DNA of 62,857 nucleotides, from positions 1 through 62,857 of the IMG/VR virus record IMGVR_UViG_3300024308_000007; one strand, 5' to 3'. Position numbers and translations under genes: made by a program. Below the pieces are notes generated by a model. The model saw nothing but the letters and a program-made list of their open reading frames with translations, had not been told where the DNA came from and did not search any database. Origin of the DNA: a virus. Lineage: Duplodnaviria > Caudoviricetes. The first letter of the stretch is position 1; each line of letters begins with the position of its first letter. Shown here piece by piece: positions 1,372-28,883 of this stretch.

Positions 1372-1380
1372 GGACTTTCC

Positions 1381-3826: not shown

Positions 3827-3828
3827 CA

Positions 3829-4944: not shown

Positions 4945-5519
4945 TAGAGGGGCTTACCGAATCCCTTGGCCACCGAACGATCGGGGTCGTCTTCGGCGAG
5001 ATCCCATACCGTCTGTTCGCGCGCTTTCGCAAACTCGTCCATGGCCAGACTGTCCCCGAACGCTTTAACCGCGAACTGTTCCACCATCCGGATGGCCTCT
5101 TCCTTCCCTGACAGGTGGTCGGGGTCATCCATCTGATAGAGATACGCGGCATACGCGCCCAATGCTTTGCCGGTCATCAACCATGCACCGTCGGGGTCGG
5201 TGGCGTCGTACAGGCTCTTCTCTGCCGGTTCGAACTCCACGTCGCGGATTTGCGATTGCCCCGGACCGGTGATCCCGCGCACCTTCACCAGTTCTTTCAC
5301 CAGGCGCGCATGTTCTTCCAGTTGGCGATGGACAGGGATGGTGTTGTCGAACACCGCCGTCATCGTTCTCCCGTCCGCCAGGTAGACGTCGAAATGCGCG
5401 CTGTCTTTGTCCGTCGCTGGCCAGAATACTCCGACCGCCCTGACGTCCTGTAAGTCCAGCAGCAGGCCGCCCATGGCGTTTCCGCGCAGGCCGTTCGTGT
5501 TGATGTAGTGCATGGACAT
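4944..5519 (-). CDS. hypothetical protein
   Basis: 191 aa, coupled to upstream gene by TAATG overlap. Confidence 0.7.
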   Translation of the reverse strand: MSMHYINTNGLRGNAMGGLLLDLQDVRAVGVFWPATDKDSAHFDVYLADGRTMTAVFDNTIPVHRQLEEHARLVKELVKVRGITGPGQSQIRDVEFEPAEKSLYDATDPDGAWLMTGKALGAYAAYLYQMDDPDHLSGKEEAIRMVEQFAVKAFGDSLAMDEFAKAREQTVWDLAEDDPDRSVAKGFGKPL

Positions 5520-7573: not shown

Positions 7574-8260
7574 CTACAACGAAAATGACTGGATATGTCG
7601 CTGCCGGAACTCTGCCAGTTCTTCCGCTCGCTGCCGACCGAATGCCAGAAGTTCTTTCCGGTGAATGTACACTGGTTCCTTGTCGCGGGGCAAGTGCTTA
7701 TTGAACACCAGCACGGCGCAGCCAAAGAACGCTGACTGCCGCGGTACCCGCTCTTTCGCGTTAAACCAGACCGGACGTTCGAACGCGACGCGCCCCTTGA
7801 TGAAGATGGTGCGATCCGGTTCGGTGTCCGGCCACCACGTCTCGCTGGTAGCGGCTTTAATCAGGAATGCGAAACGGCCGCCGCGCTCCCGTTCTTCCAG
7901 CGCCTTGTTGATAATCGGCGCCATACCGGTAATAGTCTCGCCCTCGTCCGACTGGATGATCGAATAAGGTGGATTAGCAAAGGCATAATCAGGCTCCCCG
8001 TTGGTTATCTCCTGCAGGCGGCCGGTCCAGTCCTGCAGCAGAGCGTTGTCCTCTGCAGTAAAGTATTCCGGACACTTGGAGTTTTGGCCATCGGTAAACA
8101 GGTCCAGCACGAACTTAGGCTGGCGGCGCTTCTCCGGCGGCAGCAGGATTTCGATGCCGTGGAAAAGCGCGTCACCGGTACGCCACTGGTCGCCCACCTC
8201 TTTCAGTTCGTGGTAGCGCTGATCCTTTACCGCTTCCAGTCGGCGCACATAGCTGTTCAT
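7574..8260 (-). CDS. dam: phage N6-adenine DNA methyltransferase (phage Dam family)
   Basis: DQWRT, FVLDLFTDGQNSKC, YFTAEDNAL, ANPPYS catalytic motif, AATSETWWP, GRVAF. Confidence 0.88.
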   Translation of the reverse strand: MNSYVRRLEAVKDQRYHELKEVGDQWRTGDALFHGIEILLPPEKRRQPKFVLDLFTDGQNSKCPEYFTAEDNALLQDWTGRLQEITNGEPDYAFANPPYSIIQSDEGETITGMAPIINKALEERERGGRFAFLIKAATSETWWPDTEPDRTIFIKGRVAFERPVWFNAKERVPRQSAFFGCAVLVFNKHLPRDKEPVYIHRKELLAFGRQRAEELAEFRQRHIQSFSL

Positions 8261-14333: not shown

Positions 14334-15331
14334 AGCAGATCATCCTCATTAATTCCGGCCAGCTTGGCCATTGCGGGGCCAATACTACCCGTACCCCAGT
14401 CCAGGACTTCATCGTCAAAGTCGGCTGTCTCCGATGGCGAGGATAAACGCGCGGATGAACTCGGCAGCGAGCGCGGGGATGATGGCGTTCCCGTAGCCTT
14501 TAAGTCGGATGTTCTTGTTAGCGCGAGCCAGGCGTAATATTTCGGACTTTCCCTGTCCCACGATTTCGGAAAACCCATTAACCAGCGGGGCAAGGCCGGG
14601 TTCAATTGGCCGCCACTTACCATCCCCGCCGCATACCCAGTCAACAACTCCCCAAGGCATGTAATGCGCAGCATGGTCGTCCTGAATCCCTGTTCCGCCG
14701 CGAAGTCGATGCGATCCCACGTCCTGTCCTTCCCGTCTTTCCGGATGACGGTCGGCCCCGATCCCTTCACGTCCGATGCCGTTGGCGTCGGCCAGGCTGC
14801 GTAATACATCGTGAGTTGCTCGCCAAGGTTCCCAGGGCTGAGTGACGTCCGGCCACTCTTCAACCTGGCCGCCTGCCGTCTGGCCAAACTGTCCGACGAG
14901 CGTTCCCCAATTTTCGACATCACTGTCGGGGACATCCAGCCGGTGAGCGCCGAACATGATTCGTTCCCTGCGGTGCGGCGCGCCGATGATACCGCCTGGC
15001 AGTACGGCCGATCCCACGGCGTAACCCGCCATTTCCAGTTGATCGTATAAATCGTCGAGCCAATGTTTTTTGATAGCGTTCTCAACCTGTTCGCCAAAGA
15101 TAACTGGAGGGCGACACTCTTTGACGAGTCGGCACCAGGTTGGCGCGAGGTGGCGATCGTCGCTGCGACCTTTTTGTTTTCCGGCCGGACTGAAAGGCTG
15201 GCAGGGAGGACTTCCGGTCCATACGCGAAAGTCATCGGGGAAACCGGCCATTCGTAAGGCGAGCGGCCATCCGCCAATTCCGGCAAAAAAGTGACAGGCG
15301 TTAAAGCCGCGAAGATCGGATGGTTGGACAT
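14330..15331 (-). CDS. C5 DNA methyltransferase beta subunit (alternate frame; motif IX and putative target-recognition modules)
   Basis: AAGGAG 8 nt before the ATG; GQLNPALPRWLMGFPKSW motif IX; WMSPT and WPTPT modules; stop overlaps the next start. Confidence 0.75.
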   Translation of the reverse strand: MSNHPIFAALTPVTFLPELADGRSPYEWPVSPMTFAYGPEVLPASLSVRPENKKVAATIATSRQPGADSSKSVALQLSLANRLRTLSKNIGSTIYTINWKWRVTPWDRPYCQAVSSARRTAGNESCSALTGWMSPTVMSKIGERSSDSLARRQAARLKSGRTSLSPGNLGEQLTMYYAAWPTPTASDVKGSGPTVIRKDGKDRTWDRIDFAAEQGFRTTMLRITCLGELLTGYAAGMVSGGQLNPALPRWLMGFPKSWDRESPKYYAWLALTRTSDLKATGTPSSPRSLPSSSARLSSPSETADFDDEVLDWGTGSIGPAMAKLAGINEDDLL

Positions 15332-15440
15332 CGACAATACTCCTTCGGTCGACCACGCCGTCTGGCAGGTCACCGGATAAAATTAAGTTCTCCAGCCAGT
15401 CGGCCGCGTTGTTATCGAATTCGTTGTAGTAGACCGCCAT
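14415..15440 (-). CDS. C5 cytosine DNA methyltransferase alpha (catalytic) subunit
   Basis: FFAGIGG (I), GSPPCQPFS (IV), GEQV (VI), PHRRER (VIII), RLKGYGNAI (X). Confidence 0.9.
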   Translation of the reverse strand: MAVYYNEFDNNAADWLENLILSGDLPDGVVDRRSIVDVQPSDLRGFNACHFFAGIGGWPLALRMAGFPDDFRVWTGSPPCQPFSPAGKQKGRSDDRHLAPTWCRLVKECRPPVIFGEQVENAIKKHWLDDLYDQLEMAGYAVGSAVLPGGIIGAPHRRERIMFGAHRLDVPDSDVENWGTLVGQFGQTAGGQVEEWPDVTQPWEPWRATHDVLRSLADANGIGREGIGADRHPERREGQDVGSHRLRGGTGIQDDHAAHYMPWGVVDWVCGGDGKWRPIEPGLAPLVNGFSEIVGQGKSEILRLARANKNIRLKGYGNAIIPALAAEFIRAFILAIGDSRL

Positions 15441-15856
15441 TACGGATTCCTCGGCGGCCGTTTGATACCGCAAAACCGGCAAAACTCGCCCTCTTCGATG
15501 CCCGGTCCCCCGCTTGCTGAGAAGAACCATTCATGGTTGCAGGACTTCGGGAATTCGTGGCCGCGGCAGCGCATCCAGTTGATAGACAGTTCGGGCGTTG
15601 CCTCCTTCTTCCGTTCGAACGGCGGGAATCCGCAAGACAGGCGAAGGGCGGCCGATGCGTCAGCGTCTTCCCACTCCACCTCTGTCGTGAACATGCGATT
15701 CGGGTCAGTCAGTTCGTGCGGGTAACGATACTTCGTCACCTCGTAAATGATGGCCACCTGCAGGATCTGGCGGCCGGTAAACCATTGCGAGCGGAAGCGG
15801 ATGTCTCCGGTCATCCCGACACGCTTGCGGTGCGTCCGTAGTGTTGGCTGGTGCAT
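15440..15856 (-). CDS. hypothetical protein with C-terminal Cys motifs
   Basis: 138 aa; TAATG overlap with the methyltransferase start. Confidence 0.6.
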   Translation of the reverse strand: MHQPTLRTHRKRVGMTGDIRFRSQWFTGRQILQVAIIYEVTKYRYPHELTDPNRMFTTEVEWEDADASAALRLSCGFPPFERKKEATPELSINWMRCRGHEFPKSCNHEWFFSASGGPGIEEGEFCRFCGIKRPPRNP

Positions 15857-19260: not shown

Positions 19261-20018
19261 TACTCTGTTTCGCCCTCGTCCAAGTTGATCTGGTTCAGCG
19301 GAGACATGTCATCCAGGTCGTGCCAGCTACCGTCGGGCCGGCGCGTCACGTTGCGCAGGTCAGGATCGGCGAGGTCGATAGAGCGGATGACCGCGAACAG
19401 CTTGCGAGCCTGGTTGCAGCAGTCGTCGATGCCGACATGCAGCGTACCTTCGTTGGCCACGCCCTCTTTCACCGCGTAGTAGGTCGACAGGAACGAGCGC
19501 GCGCAACGCACCCCCCAAAATGGCCAGTTCATCTTCGTGACCGGCAGCATGTTGCGCCAGGCATTTTCAAGCCAGTTCTGATCCTGCATCGGTCCGCACG
19601 ACCACAACTCCACACGGTCGTTATGCAGGCCGTACAGGTTACACATGTCGCGCACCCAGTCGTTGAAGCCGCGCAACACACCTTCCAGTGAAACCGCTTC
19701 CTGCTGCCCGTATACCTGGTCCATGCGGGCGGCTTCGCACTGGCGGAACCACCACATGATCGTCTGCGGGTCGATATGGCCGCCGAAATTGCGCGCGTAA
19801 TCGAATGCCGAGTCGATTTGCACGTACATGTTGAAGCGGTTCAAAAGGGACTCCTGGGCCGATTTCGCATCGAAGTCCATTACAACCGCACTCAGGGAAA
19901 TGAATGCGGCGTTGGGCGCGGTCGACAGGCTTTCCTTATCGATCATGATGCGCAGGCGAGCCAGCTTTTGCGGGGCGAAAGACGGGCGGCTTCGTTCAAT
20001 CAAAGTCAGTTGTGACAT
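19260..20018 (-). CDS. 3'-5' exonuclease (DEDDh, Rv2179c/exonuclease VIII N-terminal-like)
   Basis: IMIDKESLST.PNA, TIMWW, LWSCG..D, HVGIDD..NQA. Confidence 0.75.
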   Translation of the reverse strand: MSQLTLIERSRPSFAPQKLARLRIMIDKESLSTAPNAAFISLSAVVMDFDAKSAQESLLNRFNMYVQIDSAFDYARNFGGHIDPQTIMWWFRQCEAARMDQVYGQQEAVSLEGVLRGFNDWVRDMCNLYGLHNDRVELWSCGPMQDQNWLENAWRNMLPVTKMNWPFWGVRCARSFLSTYYAVKEGVANEGTLHVGIDDCCNQARKLFAVIRSIDLADPDLRNVTRRPDGSWHDLDDMSPLNQINLDEGETE

Positions 20019-20028
20019 GGTGGTTTCC

Positions 20029-20331
20029 TTATGCGATACGGATGATTTCTAGGGTGCACACAAACGCGTCTTTATCCCATTTACGTGAACTACTGATCGT
20101 GTACTTCTGGCCGGTCTTCTTACGGGCGTCTGTGACAGAACGACTGTGGCGGCTGCGCAATGCTTGGCTCATTCTAAGCGCGGCATCAATGGCGGACTCC
20201 CCGTTCTCCGGTACCGCTCGTTCTTCCAGGGAAATCACCCCGTTCACCGGCATACGTGCCAGTTGGCTACGAAGGCCGTTGCCTTCTGGCTTCTTAACTG
20301 CTGTTGTGTCTACTGTGATTTTCTTCGGCAT
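20029..20331 (-). CDS. small putative DNA-binding protein
   Basis: 100 aa; AGGAG RBS; first gene of the leftward early operon. Confidence 0.65.
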   Translation of the reverse strand: MPKKITVDTTAVKKPEGNGLRSQLARMPVNGVISLEERAVPENGESAIDAALRMSQALRSRHSRSVTDARKKTGQKYTISSSRKWDKDAFVCTLEIIRIA

Positions 20332-20360
20332 TTTGTTGCTCCTGTTTGCTGGTGGAGTGA

Positions 20361-20390
20361 ACTATAAACAACACTCGCTGCGAAGGTCAA
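20361..20390 (-). promoter_or_regulatory. sigma70-like early promoter
   Basis: TTGACC-18 nt-TATAGT. Confidence 0.7.
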
Positions 20391-20416
20391 CAATAATTCA
20401 CGATTATTTTCTAATC

Positions 20417-20600
20417 GCTAAAAACCACTGGCCAGAATTGCTCCGCTCACGGGGTTGTTGAAGTGATAGGGAGAATTGGTCCGATCGCGCGAGAAAAATT
20501 TCTCCGCTCATGGGGATCTTGAAGTGATAGGGCGCGGGGGAATTGCTAAAAACCGCTGGCCAAAATTGATCCGCTCATGAGGGTTTTGAAGTGACTAAGG
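20417..20600. repeat. three direct repeats CCGCTCA-N8-TTGAAGTGA
   Basis: Cores at 20443, 20504 and 20571; copies 1 and 3 also share GCTAAAAACCRCTGGCCARAATTG. Confidence 0.85.
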
Positions 20601-20684
20601 AAGTTCGCTGGCTTTTCAGCTACCGGAGAAAAAATCAGCCCGATACGGTTGCTCACGTTTGACGATTTTTAAGTGAAATTTTTG

Positions 20685-20697
20685 TAAGTCGTTGATT
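20685..20697 (-). promoter_or_regulatory. IHF-binding consensus site
   Basis: AATCAACGACTTA matches WATCAANNNNTTR. Confidence 0.55.
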
Positions 20698-20904
20698 TTC
20701 GGGGACTATTTCGATTTTTTCGGAGCGGGATCGGCTGGAAGCCGCGCCACGCCTGGCCTGGCGGGCTGTCGGGGTGCCACTGGCGGTGATCGCCTGGCGT
20801 TTTCGTTGTCCTTTCAGATACCGCGAAACCAGGCGGGGCGCGGGTTTATGGTTGTTTCGTTGGTGTTGACCGTCCGCAAAGTTGAAAAATATTTTAATAA
20901 GGTG

Positions 20905-20934
20905 TTGACCTTCGCGGCGGAGGTCATTAATAAT
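20905..20934 (+). promoter_or_regulatory. sigma70-like pre-early promoter with palindromic operator
   Basis: AT-rich UP element; TTGACC-18 nt-AATAAT; TGACCTTCGCGGCGGAGGTCA palindrome. Confidence 0.75.
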
Positions 20935-20987
20935 TAGGCCGCACCACCAAACAACGACACGAAACAACAGATAAACGAGGTAACACG

Positions 20988-21245
20988 ATGGAAAGGATTT
21001 ACAACACGCTGAAAGGGCAACCGCTGCAACATTGGTTGACTATCGCGATCATCCGTGACGAAACCGGATCGGCAACCGTTGAAACGCGCTCAACTATCCA
21101 CGTAGTAAAAGCGCGGCCTCTTTCTCAATCCTGGGGCGCGTCGTTCTCTGATTCTGACATCCTGAACGACAACGATTTATTAAAGGTTGTTTATCAGCGT
21201 TTCGGACGTGAGATTTTCACCGCCGATTATACCCGCAATTTTTAA
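20988..21245 (+). CDS. pre-early hypothetical protein
   Basis: 85 aa; GAGGT RBS. Confidence 0.7.
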   Translation: MERIYNTLKGQPLQHWLTIAIIRDETGSATVETRSTIHVVKARPLSQSWGASFSDSDILNDNDLLKVVYQRFGREIFTADYTRNF

Positions 21246-21262
21246 TTAAAGGGGACCAGAAA

Positions 21263-21808
21263 ATGCAGTCAATCACCACCACGTACACTTTCACGAACGG
21301 CGGACAAGGCCGGATCTTGGTTGAATCATGGCACGGTAAAAAACGCTATAACGCGGATGACGCTTTGAACAGTGAGCAGAATCACCGCCGCGCTGTTCAA
21401 TTGTACATTGACGAAATGAACGAACGCCGCCGCGCTAATCGTCCTGGGGAAAACGTCCCGCCTTTCGAGATCGTCACGTCCGCGCCGCTATCGGGGGAAG
21501 GATGGGCGTTTATGGTCGATTATGCACCGGAGATCGCGCCGTGTCATATGTCTATAACAGTGCGTTTCATGCCTGGAACGAACACCCGCCCCGCTTATAT
21601 GAAAGTTCATTCGTGGTTATTCCCGAAAGGGACGACGGTTAATTATTCACGCGCCACGCAACCAGGGGACGTACAAGGCGCGGCGTTTTATGCGGCGCGG
21701 ATCATGCTGGATATGATCAACGATGAAGTAAAAGACGCCGGAATATCCTATTCCATCCGGGACTATATCCAGACATATAACGGGGATCGCGTTTTCTCTT
21801 TAATCTGA
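21263..21808 (+). CDS. pre-early hypothetical protein
   Basis: 181 aa; AAGGGG RBS. Confidence 0.7.
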   Translation: MQSITTTYTFTNGGQGRILVESWHGKKRYNADDALNSEQNHRRAVQLYIDEMNERRRANRPGENVPPFEIVTSAPLSGEGWAFMVDYAPEIAPCHMSITVRFMPGTNTRPAYMKVHSWLFPKGTTVNYSRATQPGDVQGAAFYAARIMLDMINDEVKDAGISYSIRDYIQTYNGDRVFSLI

Positions 21809-21866
21809 TTTGTTTTATTGCACGACGATAGCCGAAATATACCGACGACATAACGAGGGGTTTACC

Positions 21867-22502
21867 ATGCGTACTATTAACATCGAACTTTTTAAATTCG
21901 CTGAACTGGACGACGCCGCCAAAAAAGCCGCATTAGAAAACGTCCGCGCCGTTTATCTGGATTCATCGGATTTTTGTTTTTCCGAATATCTCGCCAGTTT
22001 AACCGCTTTCGCCGATGACATCGGGATCGCCGTCCGGGGCTATTCTTTCGGCCTGGAAGGCGGCAACGTCGATCTAGATTTAGATGATTTGTCCGCCGAA
22101 TATAAAAGCGGCGCCCGCCTTTACGCGTGGATCGTGAATAACGTTAAAGGGCTGCAACCCGGCCCGCGCGTTTACCGTGTTGAGCGCGACACCGTGCGCC
22201 ATGGTTTCAAACAACGTGAAAGAATCGTTAAACGTGTTAGCCGTATCTATTCGGGGGATGACTGCTGCAATTATACCGGCGTTTTCTGTGACGAATCTTT
22301 ATTAACGCCTTTCCGCGAATTCCTGAAAGCGCCAACGGATGAAACCTGTTTAGGCGACCTGGTGCGCGCGGCTGTCGATTCCTTTTGCGCTGATATACTG
22401 GCAGAACTGGAACACCAGGAAAGCGACGAATATGCGCAAGAATGGATCGAGAATAAAGGCGATGAAATCGAATTCACCGCAAACGGAAAAATTTACGGAT
22501 AA
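21867..22502 (+). CDS. pre-early acidic protein
   Basis: GAGGGG RBS; LFKFAELDDAAKKAA, C.YTGVFCD and EFTANG motifs. Confidence 0.7.
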   Translation: MRTINIELFKFAELDDAAKKAALENVRAVYLDSSDFCFSEYLASLTAFADDIGIAVRGYSFGLEGGNVDLDLDDLSAEYKSGARLYAWIVNNVKGLQPGPRVYRVERDTVRHGFKQRERIVKRVSRIYSGDDCCNYTGVFCDESLLTPFREFLKAPTDETCLGDLVRAAVDSFCADILAELEHQESDEYAQEWIENKGDEIEFTANGKIYG

Positions 22503-22512
22503 GGGGATCATC

Positions 22513-22803
22513 ATGACTATTAAAATTTTAACGGCTGAATCTATCGCCGTGATCTCTTTTTGGGAATTGAACGACGCGCAACAGGCTGAACAGTTGGAAA
22601 CTTTCGGCAGTGACGCGGAAGACGGCAATTATTTTATTTATGCCGATCAGGTTTACGCAATGGCGGATTGTATGCGCGAAGAATCGCACACGGAAGCGGG
22701 CGCGGCGGGCTGGAATGGGTCATTTAGTGAAACGGCGTTTTCCCGTCTCCTGGTGCGCCTGGTGGATGATAACGAGGCTGTTTTACTGGGGCGCGAATCA
22801 TGA
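22513..22803 (+). CDS. pre-early acidic protein
   Basis: AAGGGG RBS; 96 aa, D/E-rich. Confidence 0.7.
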   Translation: MTIKILTAESIAVISFWELNDAQQAEQLETFGSDAEDGNYFIYADQVYAMADCMREESHTEAGAAGWNGSFSETAFSRLLVRLVDDNEAVLLGRES

Positions 22804-22991
22804 TTAAAGAAAATGATATTGTCCACGAAAACGGGAAATATTGGGTTATGCGAAACCGTAAAGATCGCTGTTATTCGGTTATGGTTTCCGGCGCAACTCA
22901 TTCTGTTAGCGATAGCCATTATTCCATGGACGACGACGGGCTATCCATTGCCGTCGCCCGTTGTGATTATCTTGCGAGGCCGAAAAAATGA
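22800..22991 (+). CDS. pre-early hypothetical protein
   Basis: 63 aa; ATGA overlap. Confidence 0.65.
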   Translation: MIKENDIVHENGKYWVMRNRKDRCYSVMVSGATHSVSDSHYSMDDDGLSIAVARCDYLARPKK

Positions 22992-23188
22992 TCCTTTTAT
23001 TCATCCTGGCCGGATATGCCTTTATCGGCTTTTACGTGGGGCGTGATTTGCTGGCGGTGCATCGCCGTTGCCGTGTCGAATTCCGGCAATGTTTCGGCAA
23101 GCGGAAAATATATTTACGTGAACGTAAGACCGGACGTCTGATCGGCTGTTCAAACAATCCATTTACTTTAATTTTGCAGGTTGCCTAA
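22988..23188 (+). CDS. pre-early small membrane protein
   Basis: 66 aa; N-terminal TM helix. Confidence 0.55.
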   Translation: MILLFILAGYAFIGFYVGRDLLAVHRRCRVEFRQCFGKRKIYLRERKTGRLIGCSNNPFTLILQVA

Positions 23189-23189
23189 T

Positions 23190-23366
23190 ATGCCTTATAT
23201 CCGCGCCCTGGTCGCGCTAATCGTTGTCTTATTCGCGTTTGCCGTGATCTATAACTTGCCTTATCCGTATCTTTCGCCGCGCTGGTTTTTCACGGCGGCG
23301 GGCGTCGCTTTCATCGCGGCGGCCTTTGTGGGCTTTATTCTTCCCGATAACAAAAAAGGCGGCTGA
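23190..23366 (+). CDS. pre-early small membrane protein
   Basis: 58 aa; two TM helices. Confidence 0.55.
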   Translation: MPYIRALVALIVVLFAFAVIYNLPYPYLSPRWFFTAAGVAFIAAAFVGFILPDNKKGG

Positions 23367-23368
23367 TC

Positions 23369-23500
23369 ATGATTAACCTCAAAGATACGGCGGAAGTGGT
23401 GATCCCGGTCCTGGTCCTGGCGGGGCTTCTCCTGGCGGTGTCGCTGGACTTTAAGCGCCGTTTACGCGCCGCTGGTAAAAAGTTTAAAAACAGACGCTGA
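23369..23500 (+). CDS. pre-early small membrane protein (43 aa, not in ORF track)
   Basis: MINLKDTAEVVIPVLVLAGLLLAVSLDFKRR...; TM helix plus basic tail. Confidence 0.5.
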   Translation: MINLKDTAEVVIPVLVLAGLLLAVSLDFKRRLRAAGKKFKNRR

Positions 23501-23532
23501 TCACAAAATTCGCATAACGCGAAAAATAGTTT

Positions 23533-23572
23533 AAGGCCGCGATCCCTTGTGCTGTAAGGGGTTGCGGCCTTT
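23533..23572 (+). terminator. putative terminator hairpin
   Basis: AAGGCCGCGATCCCTT...AAGGGGTTGCGGCCTTT. Confidence 0.5.
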
Positions 23573-23598
23573 GTTCGTCTGGCTTCCGTGAAATAGTG

Positions 23599-23627
23599 TT
23601 GACCTTTGCCGCGAAGGTCACTATATT
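23599..23627 (+). promoter_or_regulatory. sigma70-like pre-early promoter with palindromic operator
   Basis: TTGACC-17 nt-TATATT; TGACCTTTGCCGCGAAGGTCA palindrome. Confidence 0.75.
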
Positions 23628-23681
23628 GGCATTGCACCACCAAACAAAAACATCGAAACGCACCAACGAGGATAAACAATC

Positions 23682-23981
23682 ATGAGTAAATCAGCACTGA
23701 AAGCCCTGGCAAACGCGGACGACAACGAAAGCGCGGCAATCTGCAACCTTTGCGCAAGCCTGATCGTTAATGACGACGCTACCGGATTCGATTATTCGGA
23801 CGACGGCGAAAAACGCGAAAAGAACGCGCGGATCGGGATCGCGTCGTGGCGGGCTGAATGGTTGACGTTAGCCGTTGATCTGGATAATGCAGAAAACGGC
23901 GTCTCTTTCGGTTGTGAATGTTGCGGCGCGCGTGTTCACGGCTGGCGCGGTCGCGTAGTTTTCGCCAACTTTCGTAATTAA
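23682..23981 (+). CDS. pre-early putative zinc-binding protein
   Basis: 99 aa; CNLC...CECC; GAGG RBS. Confidence 0.7.
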   Translation: MSKSALKALANADDNESAAICNLCASLIVNDDATGFDYSDDGEKREKNARIGIASWRAEWLTLAVDLDNAENGVSFGCECCGARVHGWRGRVVFANFRN

Positions 23982-23991
23982 GGGGTAAATC

Positions 23992-24231
23992 ATGATCGGT
24001 ATCTGTGAACGTAGAACGGTTATTCAGGCTTGCGCGGAATTCAGCAGAACACGCCGCCACCTGGCCGGATGGAAAACCCGCGACGGGTTGACGTTCGACC
24101 GTGATGGATACCGGATTGAATTCACGGACTGGCGCTGGACACTGTATAAAAACGCTCTTTCGTCCCGTCATGCTGTTTATGTTTCGTCTTACTTAATCGC
24201 CGTGGTGGACGCGGCAAAGGAAATTAAATAA
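23992..24231 (+). CDS. pre-early hypothetical protein
   Basis: 79 aa; AAGGGG RBS. Confidence 0.65.
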   Translation: MIGICERRTVIQACAEFSRTRRHLAGWKTRDGLTFDRDGYRIEFTDWRWTLYKNALSSRHAVYVSSYLIAVVDAAKEIK

Positions 24232-24310
24232 TGAGTATCGGCCTGATTTTATCCGTGTGTATGCCGCTGATATCCGGCGGTGACGATGCGAAATGGATAT
24301 GGGGTGCGGC

Positions 24311-24595
24311 ATGAGAGATCACGAATACCGCGTATTAATCCGCATTATCCGCGCTCGTTCCCTGGTGGTTGGGGACACAATAGCGACGCTTGATCGCGTC
24401 GAACTAAAACAGGGCGGACGCTGTGAGATGGTGGATCGCTGGTTTACCTGGAAAATTGAATCAATCGACACTTTCGGATCGGCGGTAGTCCTGCATTTAT
24501 CGCGCCGCCTTGCTGAACTCAAAAAGCATAAATTAATGGTCACGCCGCCGGATTCATATCAAAAGCGCGTGATCGGATGGATTAAGGAGAACTAA
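24311..24595 (+). CDS. pre-early hypothetical protein
   Basis: Start MRDHEY with GGGG RBS; in operon. Confidence 0.6.
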   Translation: MRDHEYRVLIRIIRARSLVVGDTIATLDRVELKQGGRCEMVDRWFTWKIESIDTFGSAVVLHLSRRLAELKKHKLMVTPPDSYQKRVIGWIKEN

Positions 24596-25054
24596 ATGAT
24601 CACGCTGAACCGCAACCGTACCAAACCGACGATTAACGACGTATTAAACGAATTAGACGCTTTCGAGGCCGAAACCATGACAACCGCAAAACCTTTTACC
24701 GTATTCATTCACGATAAAGACACCAGCGCAGCCGATCCTTTCCAGGAAACCTATAAAAGCGCCTTGATCAGCACGGCGCACCTGACCCCCGCCACGCTGG
24801 GCGTCCTGAACCGTATCACGGCCAGCAGGGATCTACCTTTCTGGATTTACGCCACGGAATACGGCTGGATCGTGTGGTTCGAGGCAGTGGACGCGATCGG
24901 CCTGATTGAAGAGGAGCACCCCGCCGCCTACTGGATAGCGCAGCAGGCCGATCTGCTGGCGATAAAAGCTGCCCTGTTTAAACACGGGTATCAGGCCGCG
25001 CACCTGGACAAGGACGGGCCGATCATTGACGGCCTGGAAGAGTACGATCATTAA
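24596..25054 (+). CDS. pre-early hypothetical protein
   Basis: 152 aa; AAGGAG RBS; LISTAHL...TEYGW...LDKDGP. Confidence 0.7.
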   Translation: MITLNRNRTKPTINDVLNELDAFEAETMTTAKPFTVFIHDKDTSAADPFQETYKSALISTAHLTPATLGVLNRITASRDLPFWIYATEYGWIVWFEAVDAIGLIEEEHPAAYWIAQQADLLAIKAALFKHGYQAAHLDKDGPIIDGLEEYDH

Positions 25055-25090
25055 TCTGTAAATCATCCTCGTTAATCTGGCTTTATGGTT

Positions 25091-25117
25091 GCCCGTCTAT
25101 CATGGACGGGCTTTTTT
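25091..25117 (+). terminator. intrinsic terminator
   Basis: GCCCGTC-TATCATG-GACGGGC-TTTTTT. Confidence 0.8.
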
Positions 25118-25469
25118 ATTTGTGTTGTCTGCCTGGTTGCCGCCGCCTTTCTGAATACCGCGAATAACATCATTGATCCGCGTACTGGTCCCGCCTGTTT
25201 TTGCTCTTTTCTGACTCTCAGAGATCACCCCCTACGGAATACCCCACACACCACGATCACCCCCTTATATGGGGGCATATCCGCATACCGTGTATAACGT
25301 GTATATCAGGATACTGATTCTGGCCCCTGTATGGGGTCTACATTCAACGATCTATCATGAGGTAGTGCATAGGTAGCGGGTCGCCTGGCGGACGCGTCTC
25401 AGCGCGATTGAGGACGAATGACGCACCAGGGGCGAAAAGGTACTTCCCCCACCCCGTTTTCAGCCCGCG

Positions 25470-25481
25470 GGGGCGCAGAGC
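25470..25481 (+). other. predicted cos site (12-nt cohesive end)
   Basis: GGGGCGCAGAGC is an 11/12 match to the phage Chi cohesive end as I recall it (GGTGCGCAGAGC); flanked by CCGCG/CGCGG; lambda-like terminase present. Confidence 0.8.
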
Positions 25482-25539
25482 CGCGGTTTGCGAAATTGTG
25501 CGGGATCTGCCATGGCTCCACTGCGGCCAACCATGGAAA

Positions 25540-25836
25540 TTCTGGCACTTCTGGAACAATTATTTCTGGTACGGATTCTGGTACAGTTTCTGGTACAATA
25601 GAATTTCTTTATATAATAGATACTTAGAAGTCAGTTGTACCAGAAGTACCAGAAGTACCAGAAGTTTCTAAGGTTCCATTAATACTCCACTGTCTAAAAC
25701 TAAACGATCCTCACATATAAAACGTAATACATATATAACGCGTAACTGAACCTTTCTGGTACACTCGGTACAAAGCCTTTTTCCCGTTGCAGATCATGTA
25801 CTTAACCCTGTACCGGAAGTTTTCGAGTTCTGGTAC
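25540..25836. repeat. iteron-like TTCTGGTAC/GTACCAGAA array (putative origin or cosB)
   Basis: About 12 exact or one-mismatch copies in both orientations around an AT-rich core. Confidence 0.8.
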
Positions 25837-25968
25837 TTAGACGAAAAATGCAGTGGAAAGCCCCCGAAATTTTGCAGAAAAACGCGAATTTTCACGCCTA
25901 CGAAAACGAAAAATCCCCGGATTTCTCCAGGGATTCGATTTCAAAAATTGGCCAATTTCAGAAATTCG

Positions 25969-28599
25969 TTAAAGGAAGTCGTCTTCGTCGAATTCGTCTT
26001 CCTCCTGTACATTCGCTTCATTGTGTCGGTCGAGCCACGCGCGAATTTCGTCTGCATCTGGCGAACCATCCGGGCGTTCGAAATGCTTCGGTTGTGGTGA
26101 ATAACAGCGTCCCAGTTTTCCGTCCATGCGGACTTTGCCGGAGTGCGTGGAGGCTACGCGGTAGAAACCGGCGGCTTCCATTTTCCTGGAAATAGAACGC
26201 GAATTCGGCGCTTTGAAATTGTCTATTTCGCGCTCCATGTACTCCATCAAAGACGGCATGAAGATGATGTCGCGGCAGACGTTCCGTGTTCGGTTTTCGC
26301 TGACGCAGGTGATCACCGAATCCGTGAAGTCATCCTTCGACAGCGCCATCATTCTTTCGCGCGCCATGGTGTCCATAGGAGCGTGGCCACCCGACGGGTT
26401 AAAGTCTTTGCGGAACTGGTATTCGCTGAACCATTTACGCAGCGCGCCAGCAGACTGGCGGAATGCGCGGTCGAACCGCTTGAAGAAATTCGGCTCGGTT
26501 TTCAGGAACGGCATAAGGTCGCGCTTTTTGTCCTGGAACTGGCTGGCCACCACCAGATAGCGGCGGTCGTTGTCGTCAATTGGCAGCGCTGCAGGGTCGT
26601 TTGTCACCATGATGTAACTGGCGGTGTTGCGGACTTTCAGGCTGTCTTCACGCATACGGCGCACCGAAATAACGGGGTTGGTGATGAACGGCTTGATGTT
26701 GTTCAGCACGTCATAACCATGGCCTACCACGGACACCTCTTCCACGAACTTAACGATGTCCGATTCCGCCCACTTGGTGAAATTGCTCTGCAGGTCGGAG
26801 TTACTTACTTCGCCCACGTTCGCGTCCCCCAGGATGCAGCGGAACATTTCGCGGATGATCGTCTTGCCGGAGCCGGGGCAACCGTGGATGATCAGCGCGT
26901 AGTTGATGCGTTTTCCTGGGTTTTTCACTATCCAGGCGAAATACTCCATCACGTATTCCCGTTCTTTCGGGTCGGGGAACTGAACGAGGAAGAAGTCTTT
27001 CATGATCTGGATGTTTTTCAGGTCGCGCTGCGTGTATTCCTCCGGCATATCGACCATCGTGTCCGGATGGAATGTGTTCAGGAAGATGCGGCCGTTATCT
27101 GCGGAATACGCCAGGTTGTCCGATTCGAAGAAGCGGAAGAACTCAGGCCGGCCCGCACATTCGCGTACTGGTTTCCACTCGCTGTTCGGCGTTTCGCCGT
27201 GCGCCAGCGGGTTATACATCACCCCGTCGACCACCGGCACCTGATAGATGTCCATGGCCAGCTTGGCAGGCGTGGTGTCAGGGTCTTCGTCCACCATGTA
27301 TCGGCGCATGGCAAGATCGAATGCCTGAACGCTACTGGAAGAACCGTTGCGGATGTTCACGAAAAGACCGGTCTGGCGGTTGAAACACCACTGCATCAAC
27401 CACCCTGGCAGGTCGTCCGGGTCGATACGGTATGACAGGTTTTTCTTGATCTCCGCCGGAGACAGCTTACGGCCTACCAGTTCGTTGTATTTGTCGCAGG
27501 CGACTTTCACAACGTCCATGCGCGCCATGCCGAACATCTTCACTTTGCGGAAGTGGCTGGCCGCCTCCATCCATTCGTCGCGGTTGGTGGCGCCGGAGAA
27601 TTTCGGGATCAGGGTTTCTACGGCTTCCGCGCGCTGGCGGTCTTCGATTTCGTTCGCTTCCTGCAGCAGCGAGCGGAAGGAGATCAGGCGCTTTTTATCG
27701 TGCTTGAAACCCTCGTCCCACTTCTTGTCGAAAGCGTCCTGATCGAAGTTGTTGGCCTGCGCCGACCATTTCAGCGCGATGTCGTATGCGCGATCCTGGT
27801 CTTCAACGCCGGTCTGCAATGCTGCGATGACACGAATCCACTGCTGGTAATCTTCCGAGCCTGGCAGCAGCATTACTTTGCGCTCCAGTTCGTCGTAGTC
27901 ACCATCGTACTGGCTGTATGCGTCGGCGGCGCGGTTCACCCAGTCGTCTTCTTCGTACTCTTCGTCGTCGTCATCCCATCCCAGGGTCTGCCCGCGCACG
28001 GCCATGGTGTGATTCCACCCGCGCTTGGCGCATTCGCGGTCGAATTCGGCGATGATGTCGAACGCTTGTGCTTCGGTCAGTTCCGGCAGTTCGTCGTAAT
28101 CCACTGTCGTCGGGTCGCCGTTGGCCACCCATTTATACGGCTTGTTCGTATCAGGGTGGATACCGAAAGCGATGAATTGCTGGCCATCCCCAAGGATCTG
28201 AACTTCGTGTTTCGGAGTATTTTTGTCTTTCGGGTCGCCGTCATGCCAGACCGATTTCATTGTCGGGAAGCGGGCGCCAGAAAGGCGGAACAGCAGCAGG
28301 CGTTTCGGGTCCAGGCCTACGCGAGTCGGCGCGCTGCCATAGACCAGTTCGACATAGTCCGACATGTGCGTGACGAGGTCTTCGTCGCGGATGTCGAGGT
28401 CGACGGCCGGATTTTTGGCGGTAAGGATGCCGGCCCCGCAGTCACCGTGTTGCAGAACCCAGTTTTCCCAGTTTCCTTCGAAATCATTCGTCGTCCAGTT
28501 CTTGAACAACGGCGCTTTCGATTTCCGCCGGATCGGCGTAAAGATGTAGCCATTGACGGCCAGGTCTTCGCCGACTTGATTTAGCGAAGTTTTGGCCAT
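25969..28599 (-). CDS. primase-helicase (Prim-Pol, PriCT-2, SF3/DUF5906 helicase)
   Basis: AVDLD primase motif; QQFIAFGIHPDT; YQQWIRVIAAL; HGCPGSGKT Walker A; FVEE Walker B; VTND. Confidence 0.88.
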   Translation of the reverse strand: MAKTSLNQVGEDLAVNGYIFTPIRRKSKAPLFKNWTTNDFEGNWENWVLQHGDCGAGILTAKNPAVDLDIRDEDLVTHMSDYVELVYGSAPTRVGLDPKRLLLFRLSGARFPTMKSVWHDGDPKDKNTPKHEVQILGDGQQFIAFGIHPDTNKPYKWVANGDPTTVDYDELPELTEAQAFDIIAEFDRECAKRGWNHTMAVRGQTLGWDDDDEEYEEDDWVNRAADAYSQYDGDYDELERKVMLLPGSEDYQQWIRVIAALQTGVEDQDRAYDIALKWSAQANNFDQDAFDKKWDEGFKHDKKRLISFRSLLQEANEIEDRQRAEAVETLIPKFSGATNRDEWMEAASHFRKVKMFGMARMDVVKVACDKYNELVGRKLSPAEIKKNLSYRIDPDDLPGWLMQWCFNRQTGLFVNIRNGSSSSVQAFDLAMRRYMVDEDPDTTPAKLAMDIYQVPVVDGVMYNPLAHGETPNSEWKPVRECAGRPEFFRFFESDNLAYSADNGRIFLNTFHPDTMVDMPEEYTQRDLKNIQIMKDFFLVQFPDPKEREYVMEYFAWIVKNPGKRINYALIIHGCPGSGKTIIREMFRCILGDANVGEVSNSDLQSNFTKWAESDIVKFVEEVSVVGHGYDVLNNIKPFITNPVISVRRMREDSLKVRNTASYIMVTNDPAALPIDDNDRRYLVVASQFQDKKRDLMPFLKTEPNFFKRFDRAFRQSAGALRKWFSEYQFRKDFNPSGGHAPMDTMARERMMALSKDDFTDSVITCVSENRTRNVCRDIIFMPSLMEYMEREIDNFKAPNSRSISRKMEAAGFYRVASTHSGKVRMDGKLGRCYSPQPKHFERPDGSPDADEIRAWLDRHNEANVQEEDEFDEDDFL

Positions 28600-28883
28600 T
28601 AGATCAGACTCCCGTTCCGGACACACTCGACTGGATTAACCAGCCATTCCCACCGGATGAACTCTCGGCCTAAACCGGCTTCAACCATCATTGCCGCGCG
28701 CGTCGTGAAACGACCCTCGCGCATGAAACGGGAAAGTACGTCGGGACGGAAGTCGCAGATCTCCGCGATTTCTCTTACCAGGACACGATTTTTAGAAAGC
28801 AGGCCAGCGCGGGCAACCACGAAACGAACGATCTGTTCGGCATCTTCGCGGTCTACGCAGGCAGGAAGTTCAGGTAATGACAT
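28599..28883 (-). CDS. putative HTH DNA-binding protein
   Basis: GAGG RBS; VREIAEICDFRPDVLSRFMREG helix-turn-helix-like segment; coupled to primase. Confidence 0.6.
   Translation of the reverse strand: MSLPELPACVDREDAEQIVRFVVARAGLLSKNRVLVREIAEICDFRPDVLSRFMREGRFTTRAAMMVEAGLGREFIRWEWLVNPVECVRNGSLI

What the first reader, a model, noticed from the sequence alone, without database searches (positions are those of the whole stretch)
20700..25470. Terminal segment with a distinct methylation/restriction-site signature: candidate first-step-transfer DNA
Seen (manual counts): about 44 GATC and about 25 CCWGG in 20.7-25.06 kb (roughly 10 and 6 per kb), against about 4 and 3 per kb in the polymerase gene. 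I found no CTGCAG, GTCGAC, GGTACC, TGGCCA or ACCGGT here, though they are abundant elsewhere. The segment ends at cos. Known: GATC and CCWGG are Dam and Dcm targets; in lambda-like packaging the last-packaged end generally exits first; T5 injects a restriction-site-poor pre-early segment first. Inference: this end enters first, heavily marked as self, and expresses takeover genes before the site-rich remainder enters. The avoidance is selective, since GAATTC is present.
Basis: partly seen in the sequence, partly recalled or inferred. Interest (0 to 1): 0.75.

Follow-up and report, generated by a model that had tools for sequence, protein, structure and literature searches.

The report
GATC-rich early end of Chi-like phage
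The last five kilobases of this Chi-like phage genome form an operon of small unknown genes, probably expressed early, whose DNA is unusually rich in Dam methylation sites while the rest of the genome avoids them, and the same contrast is seen in related phages.

Summary
The window is a complete Chi-like cos siphovirus (Casjensviridae, nearest Erwinia phage pEp_SNUABM_08).

GATC enrichment is real. It survives codon-aware and trinucleotide-Markov nulls. In four other genera (Chi, Soft, JC01, JS26) the densest GATC stretch also lies in the terminal few kb; PM87 and BcepNazgul show none. GATC is the top end-versus-rest tetramer. The bulk genome is GATC-depleted, as is long known for enterophages. 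CCWGG shows a weaker version of the pattern.

The absence of five hexamers is not significant given the block's own composition, and pooled palindrome avoidance is not conserved.

The phage encodes a Dam-family and a C5 methyltransferase.

A 2025 preprint on the relative JS26 reports that the syntenic block is expressed at 5 min, is mostly non-essential and is proposed to enter first. That supports "early, first-entering accessory genes".

Nothing supports a T5-like two-step transfer: there is no long terminal repeat and no A1/A2/dmp homologs, and T5's own first-step DNA is not GATC-rich.

The function of the GATC array is unresolved. I favour a methylation-linked role, at low confidence.

The parts
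20331..20987 (.). Divergent control region between the leftward middle-gene block and the rightward terminal operon. It holds promoter-like sites (- strand 20390-20361; + strand 20866-20895 and 20905-20934), near-identical inverted promoter copies 20360-20392 / 20903-20935, and three 54-nt direct repeats at 20413-20594.
   Evidence: The overall number of promoter-like hits in 20000-26100 is not above shuffles (8 against 7.5), so only their placement is suggestive.
20483..25352 (.). Densest GATC interval of the whole genome: 51 sites in 4870 bp, 10.5/kb.
   Evidence: Likelihood-ratio scan over all intervals of the cos-rotated genome (rotated coordinates 57744-62613 converted to window coordinates).
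20988..21245 (+). Gene 1, 85 aa, DUF7300 / phrog_4445, unknown function; homolog in Chi and JC01.
21263..21808 (+). Gene 2, 181 aa, phrog_3199, unknown function.
21810..22502 (+). Gene 3, 230 aa (the start may lie later), phrog_10310, acidic (net charge -15).
22513..22803 (+). Gene 4, 96 aa, very acidic (pI 4.1, charge -13); homologs found only in the same phage group.
22800..22991 (+). Gene 5, 63 aa, phrog_20712; sub-threshold Pfam hit to the N4 gp8 replication inhibitor (E 0.0034, 18.3 bits against a cut-off of 25).
22988..23188 (+). Gene 6, 66 aa, basic, phrog_2385; the most widely shared gene of the block (Chi, Soft, pEp08, G001, G002).
23181..23366 (+). Gene 7, 61 aa, hydrophobic (GRAVY 1.02), probably a membrane protein.
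23599..23627 (+). Internal promoter-like site (TTGACC-17-TATATT) in the 316-bp gap before gene 8.
23682..23981 (+). Gene 8, 99 aa, unknown function.
23992..24231 (+). Gene 9, 79 aa, unknown function.
24293..24595 (+). Gene 10, 100 aa, unknown function.
24596..25054 (+). Gene 11, 152 aa, DUF5983 C-terminal domain, acidic (charge -12).
25091..25111 (+). Intrinsic-terminator-like hairpin (9 pairs) followed by a T run; end of the operon.
25436..25445 (+). AAAGGTACTT box 25-34 bp upstream of cos, conserved in all 7 enteric relatives aligned. It sits where lambda has cosQ; that role is an inference.
25470..25481 (+). cosN-like 12-mer GGGGCGCAGAGC: right end of the virion chromosome on its left side, left end on its right side.
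25534..25838 (.). Array of at least 10 direct and inverted TTCTGGTAC-type repeats just inside the left chromosome end; candidate terminase-binding (cosB-like) sites or iterons.
7574..8260 (-). Dam-family N6-adenine DNA methyltransferase (PF05869, 97.5 bits against cut-off 28.1; phrog_111). Annotated 'PAPS reductase' in relatives.
14415..15530 (-). C5-cytosine DNA methyltransferase (PF00145, 75 bits; phrog_363).

Best explanation
The segment is the right-terminal operon of a Chi-like cos siphovirus. It has eleven small genes of unknown function. They are read from sigma-70-like promoters at about 20.9 and 23.6 kb towards cos and stop at a terminator at 25.1 kb.

Shown here:
- The block has its own DNA vocabulary. 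GATC fills 40% of the places where it can be encoded synonymously, against 19% elsewhere.
- GATC sites are evenly spread (about one per 97 bp) and are conserved in position more than control words.
- The bulk genome is GATC-depleted.
- Four other genera (Chi, Soft, JC01, JS26) show the same contrast; PM87 shows it only weakly. They share 0 to 3 of the 11 genes.
- The phage carries a Dam-family and a C5 methyltransferase.

Taken from a relative (JS26 preprint): the syntenic block is expressed within 5 min, is largely dispensable and is proposed to enter first.

Inferred:
- This end is packaged last and ejected first.
- The GATC array is kept by selection tied to adenine methylation.

The mechanism I think most likely (about 30%) is a methylation-state mark. 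The infecting chromosome is fully methylated and expresses the block. Hemi- or unmethylated progeny copies are treated differently, leading to early shut-off. Genes that must work from progeny DNA stay GATC-poor.
For: Identity and anatomy: synteny with pEp_SNUABM_08 and Chi; all 11 genes unknown or unmatched in PHROGs; promoter-like sites and terminator; cos.

GATC under codon-aware nulls:
- Window block 37 against 24.4 (z +3.75). The five other gene blocks have observed/null 0.62-0.92, with z down to -4.9.
- Chi gp63-75: 46 against 27.6 (z +4.67); its four other blocks 0.72-0.90. Soft gp01-15: 34 against 26.0 (z +2.1).
- JS26 gp01-13: 68 against 41.8 (z +6.15); its long minus-strand ORFs 134 against 165.7.

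Densest GATC interval: window 20483-25352; Chi 54666-58907 (lying within gp65-75); JS26 42-6306 against the early genes at 752-6314.

Specificity:
- GATC ranks 1, 2 and 1 of 256 tetramers for the early-versus-rest contrast, combined z 8.9.
- It ranks 1 in 3 of 3 lineages with within-gene or 40-codon-window shuffles.
- It ranks 1 of 136 under a trinucleotide Markov null over six enteric genera, z 7.0.
- Seven size-matched control blocks behave as null: GATC z between -1.4 and +1.3.

Use of synonymous opportunities: 34/85, 46/114 and 67/125 in the early blocks against 217/1128, 241/1044 and 162/659 elsewhere.

Positional conservation: GATC 41/43 against 209/287 for anagram words (p 0.001); 25/37 against 115/243 (p 0.03); 16/31 against 86/228 (p 0.17).

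Not host-like: 37 E. coli genes give GATC 0.90 of null. Early blocks correlate with each other (0.51-0.60), not with E. coli (0.22-0.29).

Methyltransferases.

Timing and entry in JS26: preprint sections 7-8.
Against: - No expression, methylation or entry data exist for this phage. Timing rests on one relative and on a preprint whose supplementary figures I could not see.
- The enrichment is absent in absolute terms in two of six enteric genera (JC01 0.86, PM87 1.05 against Markov). There only the contrast with a depleted bulk remains.
- In the window alone the Markov z is only 1.9.
- Against a SeqA-type reader: close GATC pairs (31 bp or less) are depleted, not enriched (window 6 against 13.9 +/- 2.7; Chi 4 against 13.6).
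- GATC specificity of the PF05869 enzyme is assumed from the family name, not tested.
- Many other words also differ between the block and the bulk (11-13 tetramers with |z|>4), so GATC may be one facet of a wider, unexplained signature.
- The three site-conservation comparisons share one reference and are not independent.
- Gene calls for the window's bulk genome are my own longest-ORF choices per strand block.
- The JS26 bulk set is only 19 ORFs of 300 aa or more.
Confidence: 0.55

Rival explanations
1. Leading-end restriction evasion (a refined form of the reader's idea). The first 5 kb to enter must survive before any anti-defence protein is made. Selection therefore purges risky short words there and lets words accumulate that are already methylated in the virion by the phage's own Dam and Dcm-type enzymes (GATC, CCWGG).
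For: - The two most enriched words are the two methylation targets: GATC and CCWGG. For CCWGG the window block has 18 against 9.5 with the rest at 203 against 246; JS26 has 25 against 12.4 with the rest at 75 against 151.
- CCWGG is zero genome-wide in the two enteric genomes without any known C5 methylase (Chi, PM87). It is tolerated in the six that carry the homolog.
- The contrast is strand-symmetric, as expected for duplex-level selection (Spearman 0.59, p 1e-12). Controls range from -0.24 to 0.04.
- Several word pairs are strongly depleted only in the block: CTGC/GCAG, CTTC/GAAG, CATC/GATG, TGGCC/GGCCA.
- CTGCAG is 0 in the end block of all 7 genomes whose bulk holds 51-87 copies.
- JS26 authors infer first entry.
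Against: - The depleted words are the same in phages of Salmonella, Serratia and the Erwinia/Enterobacter group (early-early correlation 0.51-0.60), whereas restriction specificities vary from strain to strain.
- Pooled 6-bp palindrome avoidance at the end is not conserved (window 0.76 against 1.05, but Chi 1.14 against 0.67).
- 'Safety' explains tolerance, not enrichment above neutral or positional conservation of sites.
Confidence: 0.2
2. No function. The block is a mosaic accessory region drawn from a different gene pool or subject to a different mutation and recombination regime. Its low GC and word usage, GATC included, are historical by-products.
For: - Low-GC island (0.51 against 0.57-0.60).
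- High gene turnover: 3 of 11 genes shared with Chi, 1 with Soft, 0 with JS26.
- Part of the GATC excess is explained by codon content (null 35.3 against 18.6 from base composition).
- A lower-order style exists: AAA/TTT and CG-containing trinucleotides are up, CAG/CTG and ACT/AGT are down.
Against: - The same signature recurs in blocks with unrelated genes.
- GATC stays first under a trinucleotide Markov null and under local shuffles.
- GATC sites are more conserved than anagram controls.
- The signature is not E. coli-like.
- Size-matched small-gene control blocks show nothing.
Confidence: 0.15
3. T5-like first-step transfer. Only this segment enters at first, its products are required to bring in the rest, and its site composition protects it meanwhile.
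For: - Terminal position at cos.
- Small early genes in the syntenic block of JS26, with a Tn5 hot spot read by its authors as longer exposure of first-injected DNA.
- T5's first-step DNA lacks GAATTC (0 in 10,219 bp), so site-poor leading DNA has a precedent.
Against: - There is no long terminal repeat. Ends are 12-nt cos, whereas T5's first-step DNA is a 10,219-bp repeat with an annotated injection stop signal.
- 0 of 17 T5 pre-early proteins match the window (best E 0.074).
- 12 of 13 JS26 early genes are non-essential, which does not fit products required for DNA transfer; one gene, gp10, is essential.
- The JS26 authors invoke lambda-like two-phase ejection, not a protein-dependent second step.
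- The operon is transcribed outward, towards the end.
- T5's first-step DNA is not GATC-rich (2.54/kb).
Confidence: 0.05

Closest known systems
Early region gp01-gp13 of Serratia phage JS26 (Casjensviridae, Dunedinvirus); preprint 10.64898/2025.12.19.695335 and PMC8754663
   Same: Syntenic block: at the chromosome end opposite the primase, small unknown genes transcribed towards the end. Same GATC enrichment (68 against 41.8; densest interval 42-6306). JS26 also has a Dam homolog.
   Different: None of the 11 proteins has a JS26 homolog at E<=1e-4. The preprint does not mention GATC, Dam or methylation (0 occurrences). Expression and essentiality are known for JS26 only.
Phage T5 first-step-transfer (pre-early) DNA
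   Same: Terminal DNA that enters first, carries small early genes and is poor in some restriction sites (GAATTC 0 in 10,219 bp).
   Different: T5's is a 10.2-kb terminal direct repeat with an injection stop signal and A1/A2/dmp. None of these is present here. T5's first-step DNA is not GATC-rich.
Counter-selection of GATC in enterobacteriophages (McClelland 1984; Deschavanne and Radman 1991, as cited in PMC5014478, passages read)
   Same: The bulk genome of all six enteric Chi-like genera is GATC-depleted (0.58-0.83 of Markov expectation).
   Different: The known phenomenon is genome-wide. Here one terminal block is exempt or enriched (0.86-1.58), and the phages carry their own Dam.
Lambda cos (cosQ-cosN-cosB) and right-end-first ejection (recalled from textbook knowledge; the JS26 preprint cites lambda ejection)
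   Same: 12-nt 5' cohesive end. Conserved box just upstream and repeats just downstream of the nick site. The end carrying this block would be packaged last.
   Different: Lambda's first-entering end carries late lysis genes, not an early operon. The roles of the flanking elements here are inferred only.
GATC clusters read by SeqA (oriC, P1 pac); recalled, not taken from a call
   Same: Local excess of Dam sites with a proposed regulatory role.
   Different: Those are tight clusters of sites within tens of bases. Here the sites are evenly spread over 5 kb and close pairs are depleted.

Membership tests
T5-type first-step-transfer DNA | Lies in a long terminal direct repeat | tested here: not met
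   T5: 10,219-bp repeat. Here: 12-nt cos. The 127-bp repeat at the window ends lies in the tail-gene region and is an assembly overlap.
T5-type first-step-transfer DNA | Encodes A1, A2 and dmp homologs | tested here: not met
   tblastn of 17 T5 pre-early proteins against the window: best E 0.074. PHROGs and Pfam gave no named function for the 11 genes.
T5-type first-step-transfer DNA | Entry pauses at a stop signal until pre-early proteins are made | not testable with these tools
   Needs an entry time course with and without protein synthesis.
T5-type first-step-transfer DNA | Poor in restriction sites relative to the rest | tested here: inconclusive
   39 of 64 six-bp palindromes are absent against 20-26 expected. 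The five named hexamers are not significant. Pooled avoidance is not conserved among relatives.
Casjensviridae terminal early operon (JS26 gp01-13 type) | Sits at the cos end opposite the primase, transcribed towards the end from a divergent control region | tested here: met
Casjensviridae terminal early operon (JS26 gp01-13 type) | Small genes of unknown function with high turnover | tested here: met
   11 genes of 61-230 aa, none with a known function. 0-3 are shared with other genera.
Casjensviridae terminal early operon (JS26 gp01-13 type) | Expressed within minutes and mostly dispensable | not testable with these tools
   Known for JS26 only.
Lambda-type cos packaging | Defined 12-nt cohesive end at a fixed site | tested here: met
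   The 12-mer matches Chi's record start. The core lies at the record ends of Soft, JC01 and BcepNazgul; in PM87 it lies 67 bp from the record end. Soft annotates it as a cos overhang. X7 contigs meet with a 12-nt overlap (contigs only).
Dam-family methyltransferase (PF05869) | Profile match above the curated cut-off | tested here: met
   97.5 bits against 28.1; phrog_111, E 1.5e-51.
Dam-family methyltransferase (PF05869) | Methylates GATC | not testable with these tools
   Assumed from the family name; needs a methylome.
Dcm-like (CCWGG) C5 methyltransferase | C5 methylase fold | tested here: met
   PF00145, 75 bits against 22.
Dcm-like (CCWGG) C5 methyltransferase | CCWGG specificity | tested here: inconclusive
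   All 6 enteric genomes with the homolog keep CCWGG. Of 3 without it, 2 (Chi, PM87) have zero CCWGG. JS26 keeps CCWGG and has a different Dcm-related gene according to the preprint. This is correlation only.
SeqA-type GATC cluster | Excess of GATC pairs within about 31 bp | tested here: not met
   Window 6 against 13.9 +/- 2.7; Chi 4 against 13.6; pEp08 7 against 19.9; JS26 15 against 23.8.

The most novel reading that the evidence does not exclude
Chi-like phages of enterobacteria write their first-entering early operon in a position-specific DNA vocabulary that does not depend on which genes sit there. It consists of an evenly spaced array of Dam (and, where tolerated, Dcm) sites, plus a purge of a fixed set of words (GCAG/CTGC, CTTC/GAAG, GATG/CATC, TGGCC). 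A conserved host or phage factor reads this vocabulary, either to tell the infecting methylated chromosome from its progeny or to protect the leading end. That would make it an epigenetic leading-end code and would invert the classical GATC counter-selection of enterophages.
Probability: 0.3. Interest if true: 0.75.

Novelty: new variant of a known kind. Interest (0 to 1): 0.55.

Why it matters
GATC avoidance in enterophages has been known for forty years and is treated as genome-wide. This finding shows a block with the opposite sign. It sits in the terminal block that a relative's experiments identify as early and probably first to enter. In four other genera (five counting this phage's own group) it is conserved although the genes are replaced.

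This gives a testable handle on two questions: what Dam methylation does for phages that carry their own Dam, and whether the leading end of an ejected genome is under its own DNA-level selection. Practically, the signature could help locate early or leading-end regions, and so candidate anti-defence genes, in uncultured Chi-like phage genomes.

The T5-style reading that made the finding look exciting is not supported.

Tried and rejected
- Recombination Chi sites (GCTGGTGG) as leading-end protection: none lies in the block.
- An extended motif around GATC: flanks show only a mild preference for G, and against C, after the site.
- CRISPR PAM avoidance: AAG/CTT is only modestly depleted (combined z -4.1), AGG/CCT is not depleted, and ACT/AGT is the most depleted trinucleotide.
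- A host-like signature: rejected with 37 E. coli K-12 genes as proxy. The true host genus was not available by name.
- Compositional patchiness as an artefact of pooled shuffles: rejected by within-gene and 40-codon-window shuffles.
- Pooled 6-bp palindrome avoidance as a family trait of the end block: not conserved.
- A18P4, FoX4 and Salvo: no cos core was found, so their origin was set arbitrarily. Their rows are uninformative and were left out of the six-genus statistics.
- MA11 (partial genome) was fetched only as a small locus and not analysed.
- BcepNazgul was kept as a non-enteric comparison: no Dam homolog and no enrichment.
It remains untested.
- Read laying used contigs only. Stretches without cover and the absence of a listed contig bridging cos are not evidence; 75 pieces were not shown.
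- Supplementary files were not seen. This covers JS26 Fig. S2D on genome ends and the Extended Data tables; they may bear on which physical end enters first.
- Literature: 'Chivirus' + 'GATC' returned 0 papers. A broader GATC/bacteriophage/Dam search listed nothing on Chi-like phages among its 20 rows.

Full report
WHAT THE WINDOW IS

The 62,857-bp window is a whole virus record whose first and last 127 bases are identical. This is an assembly overlap lying in the tail-gene region, not a physical end. Its nearest named relative is Erwinia phage pEp_SNUABM_08 (Casjensviridae, Gwanakrovirus), at 84% identity over 53% of window 20000-26000.

Gene order follows phage Chi. Starting at cos it runs: a primase-polymerase on the minus strand (25969-28626), replication genes, terminase (35.7-38.3 kb), structural and lysis genes, a long minus-strand block of middle-type genes (about 4.9-20.3 kb), and then a plus-strand block of small genes running back to cos.

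THE OBSERVATION

The cos call is right.
- GGGGCGCAGAGC at 25470-25481 is the only match to the pattern in the window.
- The linear Chi record starts with GGTGCGCAGAGCCGC...GGATCTGCCAT, which aligns with the window from 25470.
- The same 12-mer is the PhageTerm 5' cohesive end of Chi-like salmophages (PMC9409062, Table 2 passage).
- The 9-base core lies at the record ends in Soft, JC01 and BcepNazgul and 67 bp from the end in PM87. Soft annotates it as the cos overhang.
- In run X7 one contig ends at 25481 and another begins at 25470, a 12-base overlap. These are contigs only, from a related phage.

IS IT MORE THAN CHANCE?

GATC: 48 observed against 18.6 from base composition, 22.0 from dinucleotides and 36.8 from trinucleotides. 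Against shuffles of synonymous codons that keep the proteins, the block's codon usage and the non-coding DNA, the expectation is 35.3 +/- 3.5 (z 3.6). Most of the raw 2.6-fold excess is therefore codon content, but a residue remains.

Block by block the contrast sharpens. The segment's genes hold 37 GATC against 24.4 (z +3.75). All five other gene blocks are below their null: 20/24.6, 58/79.9, 13/14.1, 20/32.3 and 106/146.2. A likelihood scan with no prior coordinates places the densest GATC interval of the genome at window 20483-25352.

CCWGG: 28 against 19.5 +/- 2.5 under the codon null, but z is only 1.6 under a tetranucleotide Markov null. It is very asymmetric (CCTGG 23, CCAGG 5), mostly as xxC|CTG|G.

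The five absent hexamers have a summed expectation of 6.0, 4.3 or 2.8 (Markov orders 0, 2, 3) or 2.9-3.6 (codon nulls). Their absence from 4.8 kb is unremarkable, given that they were picked after the fact among 64 palindromes. What is unusual is their abundance elsewhere (TGGCCA 113 against 17.8). That abundance is mostly codon usage: 72 of 106 coding copies read xTG|GCC|A.

RELATIVES

I rebuilt eleven further genomes, oriented them by the primase and rotated them to cos where the core was found.

GATC per kb in the last 4,771 bp against the rest:
- window 10.06 / 4.23
- G001 11.11 / 4.57
- G002 10.48 / 4.30
- pEp08 11.53 / 4.69
- Chi 9.64 / 4.63
- Soft 7.55 / 3.79
- JC01 5.03 / 2.93
- PM87 4.82 / 3.62
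- BcepNazgul 5.66 / 6.45

In the enteric genomes the end window ranks 0-3 below the top of about 240 sliding windows. For A18P4, FoX4 and Salvo I could not locate cos, so their rows say nothing.

With deposited annotation and the codon null:
- Chi gp63-75 holds 46 against 27.6 (z +4.67), and its four other blocks are at 0.72-0.90.
- Soft gp01-15 holds 34 against 26.0 (z +2.1).
- JS26 gp01-13 holds 68 against 41.8 (z +6.15), while 16 long minus-strand ORFs hold 134 against 165.7.
- The densest GATC interval in JS26 is 42-6306, against early genes at 752-6314.

Only 3 of the 11 segment proteins have homologs in Chi, 1 in Soft, 2 in JC01 and 0 in JS26. The property therefore belongs to the place, not to inherited sequence.

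Under the conservative trinucleotide Markov null, the end block is at 1.31 (window), 1.58 (Chi), 1.27 (Soft), 1.55 (JS26), 0.86 (JC01) and 1.05 (PM87). The bulk is at 0.58-0.83 in all six. In two genera the end is merely exempt from the depletion rather than enriched.

SPECIFICITY AND CONTROLS

- Among all 256 tetramers, GATC ranks 1, 2 and 1 for the early-minus-rest contrast (combined z 8.9).
- It ranks 1 in 3 of 3 lineages when shuffles are confined to each gene or to 40-codon windows.
- It ranks 1 of 136 strand-symmetric words under the Markov null over six genera (z 7.0).
- Seven size-matched control blocks (four in the window, three in Chi) behave as null. Their sd of z is 1.09-1.22, 0-2 words have |z|>4, and GATC z lies between -1.4 and +1.3. 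The early blocks give sd 1.86-1.89 and 11-13 outlier words.
- GATC occupies 34/85, 46/114 and 67/125 of its synonymous opportunities in the early blocks, against 217/1128, 241/1044 and 162/659 elsewhere.
- GATC sites are conserved in position more than the 23 anagram words: 41/43 against 209/287, 25/37 against 115/243, and 16/31 against 86/228. The three comparisons share the window as reference.
- The sites are spread more evenly than random (CV 0.67-0.88 against about 0.96), and pairs within 31 bp are depleted.

A WIDER SIGNATURE

The early-versus-rest contrast is strand-symmetric (Spearman 0.59 over 120 word/complement pairs; controls -0.24 to 0.04).

Early-depleted pairs are CTGC/GCAG, CTTC/GAAG, CATC/GATG, AGTC/GACT and CGAG/CTCG. 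At pentamer level they are CGCAG/CTGCG (2/8.8, 2/13.1, 0/13.9) and TGGCC/GGCCA (3/6.9, 1/11.2, 1/12.9, while the bulk is 364/235, 252/182 and 80/108).

The top early-enriched pentamer is CCWGG. The window block has 18 against 9.5, with its rest at 203 against 246. JS26 has 25 against 12.4, with its rest at 75 against 151.

The early blocks of the three lineages correlate with one another (0.51-0.60). They correlate much less with their own genomes (0.24-0.28) and with E. coli genes (0.22-0.29); in E. coli GATC is at 0.90 and CCWGG at 0.87 of the null.

CTGCAG is, however, absent from the end block in all 7 genomes whose bulk holds 51-87 copies. This fits the GCAG/CTGC depletion.

METHYLTRANSFERASES

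Window 7574-8260 (minus strand) is a Dam-family enzyme (PF05869, 97.5 bits; phrog_111). Window 14415-15530 (minus strand) is a C5 methylase (PF00145; phrog_363).
- The Dam homolog is present in all enteric relatives examined and in A18P4. It is absent from BcepNazgul, FoX4 and Salvo.
- The C5 homolog is present in the six enteric genomes that keep CCWGG. It is absent from Chi and PM87, which have no CCWGG at all.
- JS26 keeps CCWGG and, per the preprint, has a different Dcm-related gene.
- Site specificities are inferred, not shown.

WHAT IS KNOWN ABOUT THE BLOCK

I read sections 7 and 8 of the preprint 10.64898/2025.12.19.695335. For JS26 they report cos-type ends before gp01 and after gp84. 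They describe gp01-gp13 as small genes, 12 of 13 non-essential, highly expressed within 5 min, and a Tn5 insertion hot spot read as the first-injected portion. They refer to lambda's fast-then-slow ejection. The text contains no occurrence of GATC, Dam or methylation. The JS26 primase lies at the opposite end, so the block is syntenic with ours.

Bulk GATC avoidance in enterophages and its link to MutH are cited in PMC5014478 (passages).

HOW IT PROBABLY WORKS

Shown: the anatomy, the cos position, the signature and its conservation, and the presence of the methylase genes.

Borrowed from JS26: early timing, dispensability and the proposal of first entry.

Inferred: conserved elements flank cos on both sides, and a repeat array lies just inside the left end. 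This resembles lambda's cosQ-cosN-cosB. If so, packaging starts at the left end, and this block is packaged last and leaves first.

The GATC array looks selected. What reads it is unknown. I put about 30% on a methylation-state mark that separates the infecting chromosome from its progeny. I put about 20% on leading-end restriction evasion using pre-methylated words, about 15% on a functionless by-product, and about 5% on a T5-like two-step transfer. The remainder goes to readers I have not thought of.

AGAINST T5

T5's first-step DNA is a 10,219-bp terminal repeat with an annotated stop signal and A1, A2 and dmp. None of its 17 proteins matches the window, the ends here are 12-nt cos, and T5's own first-step DNA has 2.54 GATC per kb.

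LIMITS

- There are no wet data for this phage.
- Gene calls for the window's bulk are my own.
- The JS26 bulk set is 19 long ORFs.
- E. coli stands in for the unknown host.
- Six genera is a small, related sample.
- Supplements were closed.

Noticed in passing
whole window outside 20400-26000: About 22 six-bp palindromes are completely absent from the 57-kb remainder, although each is expected 5-34 times (for example CCCGGG, GGATCC, CGTACG, TCGCGA, CAGCTG, GCATGC). Others are several-fold over base-composition expectation (TGGCCA 113 against 17.8, CTGCAG 67, GTCGAC 56, TTCGAA 41 against 9.3). Between lineages a given hexamer is all-or-none: CTGCAG is 0 in Chi and 67-87 in the window group and JS26; TGGCCA is 2 in Chi and JS26 and 116-128 in the window group.
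   Followed up: partly
window 14415-15530 (-) and relatives: CCWGG is totally absent from Chi and PM87, the enteric genomes lacking this C5 methylase homolog. It is present at 2.5-3.8/kb in the six that carry it. This suggests a Dcm-like specificity that frees the phage from EcoRII-type avoidance.
   Followed up: partly
window 7574-8260 (-); pEp08 gp44; Chi gp52: The gene annotated 'phosphoadenosine phosphosulfate reductase' in relatives matches the Dam family (PF05869) and phrog_111 (DNA methyltransferase). Its PAPS-reductase PHROG match covers only positions 284-484 of a 495-position profile, so the name probably comes from a fusion family.
   Followed up: partly
window 25534-25838: At least ten direct and inverted copies of TTCTGGTAC-type repeats lie between cos and the 3' end of the primase gene. 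Equivalent but different repeats occur in relatives. They are candidate terminase-binding sites or origin iterons.
   Followed up: no
window 25436-25445: An AAAGGTACTT box 25-34 bp upstream of the cos 12-mer is conserved in all seven enteric genomes aligned, and only partly in BcepNazgul.
   Followed up: no
window 20413-20594: Three 54-nt direct repeats (67-85% identical, spacing 61 and 67 nt), each ending in TTGAAGTGA, lie in the divergent control region. Function unknown.
   Followed up: no
window 20360-20392 and 20903-20935: The leftward and rightward promoter-like sites are 33-nt inverted copies of each other (76% complementary). This suggests a matched divergent promoter pair.
   Followed up: no
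window 21810-22502, 22513-22803, 24596-25054: Three products are strongly acidic (net charge -15, -13 and -12; the 96-aa one has pI 4.1). They could be DNA mimics of the anti-restriction kind. This is untested because structure prediction was off.
   Followed up: partly
window 22800-22991: A 63-aa product has a sub-threshold Pfam hit to the phage N4 gp8 host-replication inhibitor (E 0.0034, 18.3 bits against cut-off 25).
   Followed up: no
window 22513-22803 homologs: Two close homologs sit on contigs of about 62-64 kb that their sources label Enterobacter hormaechei, one of them as a plasmid. This is a hint to the host range of this phage group, and to phage genomes being filed as plasmids.
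   Followed up: no
segment 20700-25470 and whole genome: AGCT is nearly absent from the segment (1 against 18.6 expected) and three-fold depleted in the rest (71 against 212).
   Followed up: no
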